DNA of 64,000 bases, taken from contig OZ241742.1 of assembly GCA_965200955.1 (NCBI GenBank), forward strand, positions 702,831 through 766,830. Direction: 5' to 3'. Below, piece after piece: positions 8,289-11,416 of this stretch. The stretch's first letter is position 1; each line of letters begins with the position of its first letter. The notes under the pieces are model-generated. The model did not search any database, had not been told where the DNA came from, and worked only from the letters and a program-made list of their open reading frames with translations. A program made the position numbers and the translations under genes. This DNA comes from Rhodothermales bacterium. Lineage in GTDB: Bacteria; Bacteroidota; Rhodothermia; Rhodothermales; Bin80.

Positions 8289-9014
8289 TTATGAGGCGGG
8301 TAGCTTAACTGCGGGCATTTGATCCCATGTCCTGCCATCAAGGATTCGCCCCGCCCGTTTCTTGAAGACACCTCCCCATTGCTTGAAGAAAAACGGTACC
8401 TCCTCTTGAAGACATACATCGCGGATTTCCCTCACCCAATCAGGCTCCATCGGTCGTGCACCAGGGCCCGATTCTCCTCCGACGATCACCCAATCAATCC
8501 CTTTGACGGGGATATCTGGAAGGGGACCTATGAGTGGCTCAAGGGACAAAAACTTAACTTCTGCATTGATCTTATTGAGTTCTTGAAGACGAAACTGCCA
8601 TCGTTGTGATTCAATACTTGTTCCAAGCCAGATATTTGGACTCCAGTCTAGGTTGTTCTCAATTTCCAGAACACGACTTGGTCGTTTCGTCAGTACTTGG
8701 AATGTATGCTGAGATGCTTCGTTCATCGTCTTGAAGACGGATTGAATAAATGATAGGGGTACATCCTCATGGAAGAGATCTGACATGGAATTAACAAAAA
8801 CAAGGCGGGGTTTTTTCCATGTAAGTGGATCTTTGAGTGCGGAAGGATGGATCGTAACAGCAAAACCATTCCGATATTTTTCTAAGCCCATTGCTTGGAG
8901 CCTCCGTGCCATGCGATCAGCATAACAGAATTTGCAACCATGGCTAATTTTCGTACACCCTGTGACGGGATTCCAAGTGGTTTCAGTCCACTCAATAGAA
9001 GATTTAGTCGACAT
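8289..9014 (-). CDS. phage Gp37/Gp68-family protein (DUF5131) with N-terminal three-Cys motif
   Basis: N-terminus [19 protein letters not shown] (C-x6-C-x2-C) and ~240 aa length are typical of the Gp37/Gp68 family. It starts 2 nt after the stop of the TcmP-like gene. Confidence 0.8.
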
Positions 9015-9016
9015 AG

Positions 9017-9515
9017 TTACATGCTTAAAAGATGTTTAGCAATTTTCTTAGCAGCACTGATGGCCTTGGGAGTGTCATTACCCACGCAGAATATGAACTC
9101 ATATAGGCTTGAGTTCCTTGAATTTTTGAGAGTTTTGGATTCACTAAGAAACCGATTACCAAATAATTCTTTCAGGTTATCTTTGTAGATACGGATAAGA
9201 TTAGTCACACCAGCTTCACGAACGAGCCGTGGACCGTTAAATAACTCCATTTGGTTGCTCGGTTGATACATCGTTCGCCATACGCATTCATTACCCATTA
9301 CTCTTGTCAAAGTCTCAGCCCAGTGTGGATAGATATCCTCAGGCGGTCGTGATCGTGGGAGCATTCTAATTATGGTAGATGTAGGAAAAAGAATCCAAGT
9401 ATCCAGTGCATTGTACCCTGCAATTGTCTCAATGGTTGTCCAATCAACCTGTGCCCCAAAGGGGTCCAGAAAAAGTACACCTCTCCACCTACTCCAATCT
9501 CTCTTTAAGATATAA
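9017..9515 (-). pseudogene. three-Cys-motif partner protein (TcmP-like), C-terminal part separated from its N-terminal part by an IS insertion
   Basis: The hand-translated frame is open upstream of the tracked ORF: ...YILKRDWSRWRGVLFLDPFGAQVDWTTIETIAGYNALDTWILFPTSTIIRMLPRS... It continues in frame from the fragment at 11043-11416 once bases 9516-11042 are removed. Confidence 0.7.
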
Positions 9516-9581
9516 TAGAATGGGAAGGTTTCCCGGGTAATCGTTATTTTCCTACAACCCTAACCAATCATTTTCATTCTC

Positions 9582-10718
9582 ATGTTATTAGATCAATCCG
9601 TATCTACCCCTGTTCGTTACTACGTTGGACTTGATGTTCACCGTGACACCATCTATTCATCCGTTTATGATGCGGATCAGAAGCGTAGTTGTGCTGAATG
9701 GGAGTGCTACGTTCACAAGGAGAATAGCCTTGACCTCCTTGTGGACACTCTCCGTTCCGAATACGGTGAATTCCGTTGTTGTTATGAGGCATCCTATAGT
9801 GGCACGGCTCTTTACGATTCTCTGACGAAGCTGGGCGTGGATTGTGCAATCATTGCCCCAGGATCCATTCCCAGGTCCATGGGCGATCGGATCAAAACCG
9901 ATCGGCGCGATGCCCGAAAACTCGCCAAGTACTTTGCATCTGGGCTTCTGACCGAATGTTTTGTTCTGGATGCAGAATTGAGGGCGGTGCGAGGATTACT
10001 GCGTAGCCGTGAGGGGCTTGTGACCAACTTGACGAGCTCCAAAAATCAAGTCATTCATTTTTTGCATGCTCAGGGACATTGTTACAATCCTGGACGCTAC
10101 TGGACCAAACGGTTCAAGGCTTGGATCAACAAGGTGAACTTAGAGCAACCCTATGATGAGATTACCTTACGGGGTTACTTAGACGATGTGGCTTATTTTC
10201 AATCTCGCATTGAACAGATAGAAAAAGATATTCTGAGGGCATCCGAGTCCTTCCCATTGAAGAAACAGGTCCAGATCTTGCAGGGCTTCCGAGGCATCGG
10301 ACTGATTTCTGCTATGCACTTGATGTGTGAAGTGGGAGACTTCAGGCGATTTGACCGCCCGACGAGTCTCATGGCTTACTTGGGATTGGTTCCCTCTCAA
10401 CGATCATCGGGGAACACCATTCGGACGGGTTCCATCACAAAGACGGGGAATGCACATGCACGAAAGGTCTTGGTGAGTGCAGCTATAAAGTACCGATTTG
10501 CTCCACGAATCAGTGTTGGGCTTGAGCAACGACAGAAAAAGTGCGATGCCTCAACAATAGCCATTAGTCAACGGGCTCAAAAACGTTGTCACAAACGATT
10601 CACCGATCTCAATCAACGCAAGCCATTCAAAGTCGCCGCGGTTGCAGTGGCTCGTGAACTGGTGGGCTTTCTCTGGGAGGCATTGCAACCACCCCCACAT
10701 GAGAGCACAGATGCGTGA
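9582..10718 (+). CDS. IS110-family DEDD transposase/recombinase
   Basis: N-terminal RuvC-like DEDD motifs (YVGLDVHRDT, CYEASYSG, KTDRRDARKLA). The C-terminal Transposase_20-type region is LQGFRGIGLISAMHLMCEVGDFRRFDRPTSLMAYLGLVPSQRSSGN. Confidence 0.9.
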   Translation: MLLDQSVSTPVRYYVGLDVHRDTIYSSVYDADQKRSCAEWECYVHKENSLDLLVDTLRSEYGEFRCCYEASYSGTALYDSLTKLGVDCAIIAPGSIPRSMGDRIKTDRRDARKLAKYFASGLLTECFVLDAELRAVRGLLRSREGLVTNLTSSKNQVIHFLHAQGHCYNPGRYWTKRFKAWINKVNLEQPYDEITLRGYLDDVAYFQSRIEQIEKDILRASESFPLKKQVQILQGFRGIGLISAMHLMCEVGDFRRFDRPTSLMAYLGLVPSQRSSGNTIRTGSITKTGNAHARKVLVSAAIKYRFAPRISVGLEQRQKKCDASTIAISQRAQKRCHKRFTDLNQRKPFKVAAVAVARELVGFLWEALQPPPHESTDA

Positions 10719-11042
10719 ACGATGGTCTGGCTTTTTCAAGTCAACTCCCGTTGAGAAAACCCGCCGTTGACCGATCCTCATGGAGAAAGAGTCCGAAGCA
10801 TAGATGGAGGGCCCAAGATACTACTTTTCGGTAGCGATTCTCGCGAGCCCGAGTTCAAAGATCTTGACAGCTCCGACGTATTCAAATATTGAGCATTATG
10901 GCATATTGCCTAGCATGCGGACACCAGATTGATAAACCGTCGAAATTGCTGAGGACTCTTTCTCCATGACGATCCGTCTAAATTACAACAAAATGTAATC
11001 TCTATTTATACATATCGCCCCAATATGGAACCTTCCATTCTA
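10719..11042 (+). ncRNA. candidate bridge/seek-RNA-like structured non-coding right end of the IS110-family element
   Basis: 324 nt with no ORF, 3' of the recombinase gene. A 17-bp perfect long-range stem, TCATGGAGAAAGAGTCC (10778-10794) paired with GGACTCTTTCTCCATGA (10953-10969), encloses 158 nt. The position matches where IS1111-group elements carry their guide RNA. Confidence 0.4.
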
Positions 11043-11416
11043 CACCAGTTGTATAGATACTGGTTCGCATCCGTGTTCTCTATGTGAATATTTCTGTCAA
11101 ATCTGGATCGCTTCAGGTCCTCCAATTCAGAACATTTATTTGGATCTGTCTCAATAAAAATTAATTCATCAAATGATTTGTTCTCAATGTCTAAGGCCAC
11201 ATTGACGGATCCATCAATAAAGCTGAGGCAATCAACTTCTTCAGGACTTTGTGTTTCTTGCTGTACTCTTCCAGTTCCTGCAAAAGCATCTATGTACAAT
11301 AGCTTGAAAGGTTGATTCTTGAGGGCGGTAGTGTATGTATTGAGATACTTTCGCAAGATCTCAAGTTTTTCTAGAGTCCATCTTCCACCGAATTGATTCT
11401 CGGATATTTTTGACAT
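11043..11416 (-). pseudogene. three-Cys-motif partner protein (TcmP-like), N-terminal part (SAM-MTase-like IDAFAGTG motif)
   Basis: MSKISENQFGGRWTLEKLEILRKYL...LYIDAFAGTGRV...IFIETDP...NTDANQYLYNWC, after which the frame reads into the IS end and stops. The ATG at 11416 is preferred to the upstream start at 11449. Confidence 0.7.

What the first reader, a model, noticed from the sequence alone, without database searches (positions are those of the whole stretch)
10719..11042. Structured 3' non-coding end of the IS110-family element: candidate bridge/seek RNA
Seen: there is no ORF in 324 nt. A 17-bp perfect long-range stem (10778-10794 pairs with 10953-10969) encloses 158 nt that contain further local hairpins (CTAC-TTTTCG-GTAG at 10821-10834, and the palindrome CTCGCGAG). 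Inside the enclosed region, AAGATA (10815-10820) matches the left target flank (9507-9512). Just upstream, TAGATGGAGGG (10801-10811) loosely resembles the IS left end TAGAATGGGAAGG. ACACCAG (10921-10927) matches the right IS/flank junction (11042-11048). Established: IS110/IS1111 recombinases are programmed by an element-encoded bispecific RNA with target- and donor-binding loops, located 3' of the gene in the IS1111 group. Inference: this region encodes such an RNA. The 6-7-nt matches are short enough to arise by chance, so they are hints only.
Basis: partly seen in the sequence, partly recalled or inferred. Interest (0 to 1): 0.6.

Follow-up and report, generated by a model that had tools for sequence, protein, structure and literature searches.

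The report
Bridge (seek) RNA of an IS1111-type element

Summary
Supported: this is a new member of a known kind.

- **Model test.** A covariance model built only from distant relatives (transposases about 40% identical; this element and its nearest kin left out) hits the 64-kb window once, at 10782-10965 (+), 54 bits, E about 6e-10.
- **Known relatives.** The same model hits the 3' ends of ISSso6 and ISEc45. Published work already lists both as IS1111-group elements with a predicted right-end bridge RNA.
- **Fold.** Covariation supports it strongly: 94% of cells pair, against 31-43% in slid controls, and 32 of 45 pairs show compensatory changes.
The 17-bp stem is real. It is the core of a 28-bp closing helix around two internal loops.
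- **Target loop.** One loop carries target guides: ATACTA+CTT at 10818-10826 and TTCA+AAG at 10854-10860.
- **Donor loop.** The other carries donor guides: ATATT at 10886-10890 and ACACCAG at 10921-10927, identical to the right end 11042-11048.
- **Family rules.** Across 79 distinct relatives these positions track each element's own flanks and ends (0 of 20,000 permutations).
- **Corrections.** The element is 9510-11048 with an AG core. AAGATA lies in a stem, and the TAGATGGAGGG resemblance is coincidental. The left target guide matches its flank poorly.
- **Untested.** Expression and activity.

The parts
9510..11048 (+). Whole insertion sequence, 1539 bp. The shared AG core is counted at the right end; 9508-11046 is equivalent.
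Evidence: Multi-copy relatives fix the boundaries: their homology stops at xAG|TCA... on the left and ...ATCAG| on the right. Removing 9510-11048 restores a 286-aa TcmP reading frame that matches TIGR04474 in one stretch, 169 bits.
9508..9509 (+). Core AG, left copy. The preceding A9507 makes the AAG triplet.
   Evidence: AG lies at both junctions (9508-9509 and 11047-11048), 1539 bases apart, a spacing that keeps the tcmP reading frame. In 78 of 79 relatives the last three bases of the left flank equal the RNA's core triplet.
9516..9530 (+). Left subterminal inverted repeat, TAGAATGGGAAGGTT
   Evidence: It is complementary to 11029-11042 apart from a one-base indel. L001 carries matching changes in both repeats.
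9511..9516 (+). TATAAT, a -10-like hexamer at positions 2-7 of the left end. It would belong to a promoter formed at the circle junction.
   Evidence: Relatives form TTGACA-17-CA(C/T)AAT across the joined right and left ends. Here the matching -35 is poor (TGGAAC), read from the sequence.
9582..10718 (+). Transposase gene, 378 aa
   Evidence: Pfam PF01548 and PF02371. NCBIfam NF033542 'IS110 family RNA-guided transposase', 225 bits against a cut-off of 140. Distant match to the IS621 and ISCro4 transposase structures.
10769..10978 (+). Predicted bridge/seek RNA, about 210 nt, bounded by the closing helix
   Evidence: The covariance model hit is 10782-10965, 54.4 bits, E 6.4e-10, the only hit in the window. 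All 62 pairs of the family structure form in this sequence, at -70.4 kcal/mol against a minimum of -80.1.
10769..10800 (+). P1, 5' arm.
   Evidence: Four compensatory changes against L001. Every P1 pair has changes on both sides across the family.
10947..10978 (+). P1, 3' arm. It includes 10953-10969.
   Evidence: Same as the 5' arm.
10807..10819 (+). P2, 5' strands: GAG 10807-10809 and CAAGAT 10814-10819. P2 closes the target-binding loop.
   Evidence: They pair with CTC 10871-10873 and ATCTTG 10861-10866. The helix covaries: CCUCG/CGAGG in most relatives, CCACG/CGUGG in L003, CCAU/AUGG in L001.
10818..10826 (+). Right target guide ATACTA plus core complement CTT
   Evidence: Its reverse complement, AAG|TAGTAT, matches the actual site AAG|TTGTAT at 8 of 9 positions. 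Across the family a guide matches its own flank at 4.04 of 6 positions, against 1.68 when permuted; 0 of 20,000 permutations reach the observed total.
10827..10853 (+). P3 hairpin inside the target-binding loop: UUCGG/CCGAG with inner GCGA/UCGC
   Evidence: The U-G pair at its base is nearly invariant in the family.
10854..10860 (+). Left target guide TTCA plus core AAG
   Evidence: The position is fixed by the model alignment. Here it matches the left flank CTTT|AAG only at the core and one further base. Across the family the match is 2.2 of 4, against 1.15 permuted; 0 of 20,000.
10861..10873 (+). P2, 3' strands: ATCTTG 10861-10866 and CTC 10871-10873, within the conserved CAGCUCC
10874..10885 (+). 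P4, 5' strand (CGACG and AUUCAA). P4 closes the donor-binding loop.
   Evidence: It pairs with 10929-10942. The family's CAC/GUG becomes CAA/UUG here and CAU/AUG in L003 and L033.
10886..10890 (+). Right donor guide AUAUU
   Evidence: It pairs with core G plus left-end bases ATAT (9510-9513): four Watson-Crick pairs and one U-G pair. L004 has GUAUC for the left end ATAC, a perfect match. The family rule is the reverse complement of left-end bases 1-2 followed by C or U. It holds in 64 of 66 elements whose left end starts TC and in 10 of 13 others, against 16% in cross-comparisons.
10893..10918 (+). P5 hairpin inside the donor-binding loop: GCAU/AUGC with inner GGCA/UGCC
   Evidence: The family's GCGG/CCGC becomes GCAU/AUGC here, which is two compensatory pairs.
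10921..10927 (+). Left donor guide ACACCAG, including the core AG
   Evidence: It is identical to the right end 11042-11048. It covaries with the right end in relatives.
10929..10942 (+). P4, 3' strand (UUGAU...CGUCG)
11029..11042 (+). Right subterminal inverted repeat, AACCTTCCATTCTA
11043..11048 (+). Right-end tail CACC plus core AG
   Evidence: It aligns with the conserved ...AT(A/C)TCAG end of relatives.
11049..11054 (+). Right half of the target site, TTGTAT
   Evidence: It is complementary to the right target guide at 5 of 6 positions.
9017..9509 (-). C-terminal part of the interrupted tcmP gene
11049..11416 (-). N-terminal part of the interrupted tcmP gene

Best explanation
Bases 10769-10978 (+) encode the bridge RNA (seekRNA) of an IS1111-group, IS110-family insertion sequence that spans 9510-11048.

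Anatomy. P1 encloses two internal loops built on the same plan.
[quoted passage not shown] The 3' side (TTCA+AAG) has the sense of the left target half plus core, so it pairs with the bottom strand.
- In the donor-binding loop, the 5' side (AUAUU) pairs with core G plus the first bases of the left end. The 3' side (ACACCAG) has the sense of the right end plus core.

Inferred mechanism, by analogy with IS621 and ISEc11. The element excises as a circle that joins its right and left ends. The transposase, bound to this RNA, brings that junction together with a target of the form NNNN-AAG|NNNNNN. It then exchanges strands at the AG core, which leaves AG at both junctions and no duplication.

Shown here: the conserved fold, the strand, and the way guide positions follow the flanks and ends. 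Inferred: expression, processing out of the transposase transcript, protein binding, and activity.
For: - **Model test.** A model built without this element or its nearest kin hits only 10782-10965 (+) in 64 kb, at 54.4 bits and E 6.4e-10. It hits 151 of the 160 fetched relative loci, always on the + strand and nearly always just 3' of the transposase gene.
- **Link to known elements.** The model also hits ISSso6 (75 bits) and ISEc45 (45 bits). Durrant et al. 2024 list both as IS1111 group with the bridge RNA in the right end.
- **Covariation.** 93.9% of cells pair, against 31-43% when partners are slid. 32 of 45 pairs have compensatory changes. No shuffle of 500 reaches the observed values.
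- **Strand.** G-U pairs outnumber A-C pairs 427 to 140, which favours an RNA read from the + strand.
- **Target guides.** Both track each element's own flanks; 0 of 20,000 permutations reach the observed totals. The core triplet matches in 78 of 79 elements.
- **Donor guides.** The left donor guide covaries with the right end. The right donor guide covaries with the left end.
- **This element.** Right target guide plus core 8 of 9. Left donor guide 7 of 7. Right donor guide four Watson-Crick pairs plus one G-U pair.
- **Element type.** The transposase meets NF033542. Subterminal inverted repeats and a long 3' non-coding end are present.
Against: - The left target guide matches its flank only at the core and one of four further bases.
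- No second copy or empty site of this element was found, so its preferred target cannot be read from several insertions.
- No promoter-like or terminator-like site lies in the non-coding end.
- The junction promoter would have a perfect -10 but a poor -35.
- The minimum-free-energy fold of the single sequence does not contain P4.
- The left-donor test across the family is partly circular, because I located right ends with the guide sequence.
- There are no expression data.
Confidence: 0.9

Rival explanations
1. The RNA is a bridge RNA by descent, but this copy is inactive or sits at an off-target site. It would be a stranded element, not a working system.
For: - The left target guide matches 1 of 4 non-core bases.
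- The junction -35 is poor, read from the sequence.
- There is one copy in 64 kb, and no identical transposase is on record.
- Its nearest relative L001 has homopolymer runs and a 15-nt duplication in the guide regions. L002 lacks most of the RNA.
Against: - The transposase reading frame is intact at 378 aa and scores above the family cut-off.
- All 62 consensus pairs form.
- The combined target match of 6 of 10 is about the family median.
- The donor guides match both ends.
Confidence: 0.2
2. The structure is a 3' untranslated-region element with no guide role. Examples are an mRNA stabiliser, a terminator, or a DNA-level binding site or cruciform for the transposase.
For: - It lies directly after the stop codon and has no promoter of its own.
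- P1 is a long stable helix.
- The reverse strand also folds well (z = -4.3).
Against: - The loop sequences, not only the stems, change with each element's flanks and ends. A stabiliser or terminator does not predict that.
- G-U pairs exceed A-C pairs three to one, and two nearly invariant U-G pairs argue against a DNA cruciform.
- No run of T follows the helix.
Confidence: 0.04
3. The region encodes a small protein. The 41-aa and 42-aa ORFs lie at 10767-10892 and 10804-10932.
For: Both ORFs are listed mechanically.
Against: Alignments with relatives have many indels that are not multiples of three. Conservation follows base pairs, not codons.
Confidence: 0.01

Closest known systems
ISSso6 and ISEc45 (ISfinder; IS1111 group of the IS110 family), with right-end bridge RNAs predicted by Durrant et al. 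2024
   Same: The covariance model that finds the window RNA also finds their 3' ends, at 75 and 45 bits. The transposases are of similar length (375-378 aa) and 34-35% identical. Both are listed as 'RE, IS1111' in the paper's supplementary table.
   Different: They are only distantly related. The window element and its small subclade (L001, L003, L004) lack a segment of about 17 nt between P1 and P2. They have longer inverted repeats (14-15 bp against 11) and left ends that start ATA instead of TCA. The window and L001 also use an AAG core triplet instead of TAG.
seekRNAs of ISEc11, ISKpn4, ISPst6 and ISPa11 (Siddiquee et al. 2024, PMC11187229)
   Same: All are IS1111-type elements with subterminal inverted repeats. 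The RNA comes from the non-coding region 3' of the transposase gene. The segment complementary to the target's top strand lies 5' of the one complementary to the bottom strand. There is no target duplication.
   Different: Those RNAs were shown by experiment to co-purify with the transposase and to be needed and reprogrammable; this one was not tested. Their transposases are shorter (330-350 aa). I did not test sequence similarity to those RNAs. That paper describes target matches only, whereas here a donor loop is also evident.
IS621 bridge RNA (Durrant et al. 2024; Hiraizumi et al. 2024)
   Same: It has two internal loops, each with a left guide in the sense of the top strand and a right guide complementary to it. 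All the guides cover the core. The right-donor pairing is short. The transposases are homologous.
   Different: In IS621 the RNA lies in the left end, 5' of the gene, with the left guide on the 5' side of each loop and a CT core. Here the RNA lies 3' of the gene, the right guide is on the 5' side of each loop, the core is AG on the transposase strand, and a long helix closes the whole RNA.

Membership tests
IS110 family, IS1111 group insertion sequence | DEDD/RuvC-like transposase with the IS110 N-terminal and C-terminal domains | tested here: met
   PF01548 (E 1.3e-15) and PF02371 (E 1e-19). NF033542, 225 bits against a cut-off of 140.
IS110 family, IS1111 group insertion sequence | GL-P----S/TG motif in the C-terminal domain (Siddiquee et al. 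2024) | tested here: met
   The translation contains YLGLVPSQRSSG. The motif is quoted.
IS110 family, IS1111 group insertion sequence | Subterminal inverted repeats of 7-17 bp | tested here: met
   9516-9530 and 11029-11042, 14-15 bp with one indel, each set 6 bases in from the element's end. L001 changes both repeats together.
IS110 family, IS1111 group insertion sequence | Short left end and long non-coding right end | tested here: met
   The left end is 72 nt (9510-9581). The right end is 330 nt (10719-11048).
IS110 family, IS1111 group insertion sequence | Insertion without target duplication; the core is shared by target and donor | tested here: inconclusive
   AG lies at both junctions, and removing the element restores the tcmP reading frame. 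No empty site was found to prove it.
IS110 family, IS1111 group insertion sequence | Promoter formed at the circle junction | tested here: inconclusive
   Relatives give TTGACA-17-CA(C/T)AAT. Here the junction gives TGGAAC-18-TATAAT, with only 3 of 6 in the -35.
Bridge RNA / seekRNA of the IS1111 type | Conserved structured RNA encoded in the right end on the transposase strand | tested here: met
   Model hit with E 6.4e-10. Covariation. G-U over A-C bias.
Bridge RNA / seekRNA of the IS1111 type | [quoted passage not shown] | tested here: met
   Window 8 of 9. Family 0 of 20,000 permutations.
Bridge RNA / seekRNA of the IS1111 type | [quoted passage not shown] | tested here: inconclusive
   The family rule holds (0 of 20,000 permutations; core triplet 78 of 79). 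In the window only AAG and 1 of 4 further bases match.
Bridge RNA / seekRNA of the IS1111 type | Second loop matching the element's own right and left ends | tested here: met
   ACACCAG equals the right end, 7 of 7. AUAUU pairs with core G plus ATAT of the left end. Both covary in relatives.
Bridge RNA / seekRNA of the IS1111 type | Top-strand-complementary segment lies 5' of the bottom-strand-complementary segment (the IS1111 order) | tested here: met
   10818-10826 precedes 10854-10860. The order is as described.
Bridge RNA / seekRNA of the IS1111 type | The RNA is made, binds the transposase and is required for transposition | not testable with these tools
   There are no expression or biochemical data.
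Rfam RNA family | Match to a curated covariance model | tested here: not met
   Rfam 15 gives no relevant match even at E up to 10. No hit resembling a bridge RNA family appeared.

The most novel reading that the evidence does not exclude
The window element and its few relatives (L001, L003, L004) may form an undescribed subfamily of IS1111-group bridge recombinases. Its RNA would be a compact two-loop cassette closed by a 28-bp double-stranded helix. That helix could serve as a processing signal, for example for RNase III, that releases the guide RNA from the 3' end of the transposase transcript. The subfamily's AAG or TAG core and weak left-guide matching would mean that target choice rests mainly on the right half of the site.
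Probability: 0.25. Interest if true: 0.45.

Novelty: new member of a known kind. Interest (0 to 1): 0.3.

Why it matters
It shows that the first-stage reading can pick out a guide RNA from raw sequence. It also gives a base-by-base map of the closing helix, the two loops, the four guides, the core and the corrected boundaries for a little-sampled branch of the IS1111 group. A map like this is what is needed to clone and reprogram a bridge recombinase. The family rules derived here apply to more than 150 relatives, including ISSso6 and ISEc45: the right guide sits on the 5' side of each loop, both target-loop strands and the left-donor guide cover the core (the right-donor guide covers only its G), and the right-donor pairing is only 2-4 bases. 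The biology itself has been established since 2024, so this extends a catalogue and is not a discovery.

Tried and rejected
- **Rfam 15.** A scan at E up to 10 found nothing relevant.
- **Other copies.** An exact look-up of the transposase found nothing on record. A search of the window for a second copy found none. The metagenome scan returned only relatives about 40% identical. The genome scan gave just four nearer relatives, at 45-65%. I therefore could not collect independent insertions or an empty site for this element.
- **Boundary check by profile.** The TcmP profile could not tell a 286-aa restoration from a 287-aa one (169 against 170 bits). The boundary rests on family comparison.
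- **Right-donor guide, first idea.** I first thought the conserved AUUAU pairs with left-end positions 3-7. I dropped this because it does not follow the variable position 4. The rule 'reverse complement of core G plus left-end bases 1-3' fits better.
- **GGCAUAUUGCC.** I considered it as a guide. It is a plain hairpin whose changes in L001 add a base pair.
The AAGATA and TAGATGGAGGG matches and the CTAC/GTAG hairpin were rejected as functional features.
- **Promoter and terminator scan.** It found nothing in the non-coding end.

Full report
**1. Observation**

The region lies directly after a 378-aa transposase gene (9582-10718, +). That gene carries both IS110-family Pfam domains and scores 225 bits on NCBIfam NF033542, 'IS110 family RNA-guided transposase', against a cut-off of 140.

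The 17-bp perfect inverted repeat, 10778-10794 with 10953-10969, is real. It extends to 32-nt arms, 10769-10800 and 10947-10978, that are 88% complementary. The 324 nt fold better than all 100 shuffles, with z = -5.05. The reverse strand also folds well, with z = -4.3. Folding energy alone therefore does not decide the strand.

'No ORF' holds only above about 45 aa, because ORFs of 41 and 42 aa are listed mechanically. Rfam 15 has no relevant match.

**2. Relatives**

- No second copy lies in the window, and no identical transposase is on record.
- The genome scan gave 80 loci. L001 and L002 (a Rhodothermales genome) are 65% identical in protein, L003 and L004 are 45%, and the rest about 40%.
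- The metagenome scan added 80 more loci, all about 40%.
- Even among the 40% relatives, one motif recurs 160-200 nt after the stop codon. In the window it is GCGGACACCAGATTGATAAACCGTCG.

**3. Structure and covariation**

An alignment of 24 non-coding ends gave a consensus fold with 51 pairs, 33 of which show compensatory changes.

I built a covariance model from 21 distant relatives, leaving out the window, L001 and L003. Its results:

- In the 64-kb window it hits only 10782-10965 (+), at 54.4 bits and E 6.4e-10.
- It gives 154 hits in 151 of the 160 fetched loci, always on the + strand and nearly always just 3' of the transposase gene.
- On the alignment of the first 77 matches (60 distinct sequences), 93.9% of cells form standard pairs, against 31-43% when partners are slid by 1-3 columns. 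32 of 45 pairs have changes on both sides. No shuffle of 500 reaches the observed values.
- G-U pairs outnumber A-C pairs 427 to 140, and two U-G pairs are nearly invariant. This points to an RNA read from the + strand. The caveat is that the alignment was fitted to a + strand model.
- All 62 pairs of the family structure can form in the window sequence, at -70.4 kcal/mol against a minimum free energy of -80.1. A preliminary version of this pair list, with one helix placed a base off, shared 49 of 62 pairs with the minimum-free-energy fold.

**4. Boundaries**

Multi-copy relatives lose similarity at fixed points: immediately before xAG|TCA... on the left and immediately after ...ATATCAG| on the right. 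An 11-bp subterminal inverted repeat sits five bases in from each end.

In the window the equivalent points are 9509|9510 and 11048|11049. AG lies at 9508-9509 and at 11047-11048. The inverted repeats are 9516-9530 and 11029-11042.

Removing 9510-11048 (1539 bp) joins the two halves of a minus-strand gene into a 286-aa protein. That protein matches TIGR04474 (TcmP) in a single stretch of 169 bits. The profile cannot tell my boundary from one that differs by a codon (170 bits), so the exact boundary rests on the family comparison.

**5. Guides**

The helices define two internal loops with the same layout.

*Target loop, between P2 and P3.*

- The 5' side is six variable bases followed by CUA in most relatives and by CUU here.
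- The 3' side is four variable bases followed by UAG in most relatives and by AAG here.
- Across 79 distinct guide sets, the reverse complement of the 5' side matches the element's own right flank at 4.04 of 6 positions, against 1.68 when permuted.
- The 3' side matches its own left flank at 2.2 of 4 positions, against 1.15 when permuted.
- For both sides, 0 of 20,000 permutations reach the observed totals. A first test on 22 sets gave the same result.
- The core triplet on the 3' side equals the last three bases of the left flank in 78 of 79 elements. That includes the rarer CAG, AAG and GAG cores.

*Donor loop, between P4 and P5.*

- The 3' side repeats the last seven bases of the right end. 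The pairs are ACACCAG with ACACCAG here, ATACCAG in L001, ACATCAG in L003 and L011, and ATATCAG in most relatives. The alignment that showed this was not seeded by the guide.
- In the wider set the match holds in 74 of 79 elements. That count is partly circular, because I located right ends with the guide sequence.
- The 5' side carries the reverse complement of the first two to four left-end bases, followed by C or U opposite the core G. This holds in 64 of 66 elements whose left end starts TC and in 10 of 13 others, against 16% in cross-comparisons.
- L004, in the window's own subclade, has GUAUC for the left end ATAC. Its right target guide matches its flank at 6 of 6 positions.

*The window element.*

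| Guide | Sequence and coordinates | Match |
|---|---|---|
| Right target guide | ATACTA+CTT, 10818-10826 | Site AAG\|TTGTAT, 8 of 9 |
| Left target guide | TTCA+AAG, 10854-10860 | Flank CTTT\|AAG, 4 of 7 (core plus one base) |
| Right donor guide | AUAUU, 10886-10890 | Core G plus ATAT, four Watson-Crick pairs and one G-U pair |
| Left donor guide | ACACCAG, 10921-10927 | Right end 11042-11048, 7 of 7 |

The combined non-core target match of 6 of 10 is about the family median.

**6.

- AAGATA (10815-10820) lies in helix P2: CAAGAT 10814-10819 pairs with ATCTTG 10861-10866. P2 covaries across the family. Half of its supposed partner (9510-9512) is inside the element. I treat the match as chance.
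- TAGATGGAGGG is the family's conserved GGAG motif and has no relation to the left end in relatives.
- The CTAC/GTAG hairpin competes with P3. It is absent from the consensus fold and from the minimum-free-energy fold, and it does not follow the core in relatives.
- ACACCAG was the one correct hint.

**7. Comparison with what is known**

- The terms and strand rules used here follow Durrant et al. 2024. That paper predicted bridge RNAs in the right end of 93% of IS1111-group elements.
- Siddiquee et al. 2024 showed by experiment that ISEc11, ISKpn4, ISPst6 and ISPa11 make an RNA from the 3' non-coding region. That RNA co-purifies with the transposase, is required, and can be reprogrammed. Its top-strand match lies 5' of its bottom-strand match. 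The order is the same here.
- My model also hits ISSso6 (75 bits), ISEc45 (45 bits) and an Azospirillum element (72 bits). Durrant's supplementary table lists ISSso6 and ISEc45 as 'RE, IS1111'.
- The transposase is distantly related to the solved IS621 and ISCro4 proteins.

The element is therefore a member of a known class. It differs from IS621 in three ways: the RNA lies 3' of the gene, the guide order within each loop is reversed, and a long helix closes the RNA.

**8. What is not shown**

- Expression, processing, protein binding and activity were not tested.
- No promoter-like or terminator-like site lies in the non-coding end. This fits processing from the transposase transcript, as proposed for ISEc11, but does not prove it.
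- In relatives the joined ends form TTGACA-17-CA(C/T)AAT. Here the -10 is a perfect TATAAT (9511-9516) but the -35 is poor.
- The weak left-guide match and the lack of other copies leave open that this copy is stranded or off target.

**9. Verdict**

The novelty class is 'new member of a known kind', and the interest is modest.

Noticed in passing
window 8289-9014 (-), 9017-9509 and 11049-11416 (-): The element interrupts a tcmP gene (three-Cys-motif partner protein, TIGR04474). The gene next to it scores only 78 bits on 'radical SAM mobile pair protein A' (cut-off 355). This gene pair is itself thought to be mobile, so one mobile element has disabled part of another.
   Followed up: partly
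L002:4077-4470: The second copy in the Rhodothermales genome has the same transposase gene and left end as L001. Its sequence diverges soon after the 5' strand of P2, and the covariance model does not hit it. It may be a truncated copy that would need the RNA supplied by L001.
   Followed up: partly
L001:4121-4320: The nearest relative has a run of nine T in the right target guide and a run of A in the right donor guide. It also has a 15-nt tandem duplication (GCCCGAGCTAAAA...) that covers the left target guide. This could be decay or long-read homopolymer error.
   Followed up: no
L004:4409-4440: The right end reads ACATCCG, whereas the RNA's left donor guide reads ACATCAG. The core A is changed to C, so this copy may be unable to move. 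Its other three guides match perfectly or nearly so.
   Followed up: no
L071:5662-5844, and L074:5331-5476: L071 has a second full-length model hit about 1.3 kb downstream of the first. L074 has a partial hit far from its transposase gene. These may be adjacent elements or stand-alone RNA genes, as reported for the extra ssr9 copies of ISPpu9.
   Followed up: no
L010, L030, L031, L039, L040, L051 (right flanks); L015, L018-L025, L038, L041: Many relatives sit in repeated palindromic sites. Examples are GTAG|GGGCGG...CCGCCC and TATAG|AACTAATCAGGAGTT, which resemble repetitive extragenic palindromes.
   Followed up: no
window 9582-10718, residues 207-276: Part of the transposase's C-terminal region gives a weak match (26 bits, cut-off 100) to NF052498, the TIGR-Tas RNA-guided endonuclease.
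   Followed up: no
window 10982-10999: An A+T-rich hairpin (ATTACA-ACAAAA-TGTAAT) lies between the RNA and the right inverted repeat. It is largely conserved in L001, and its role is unknown.
   Followed up: no
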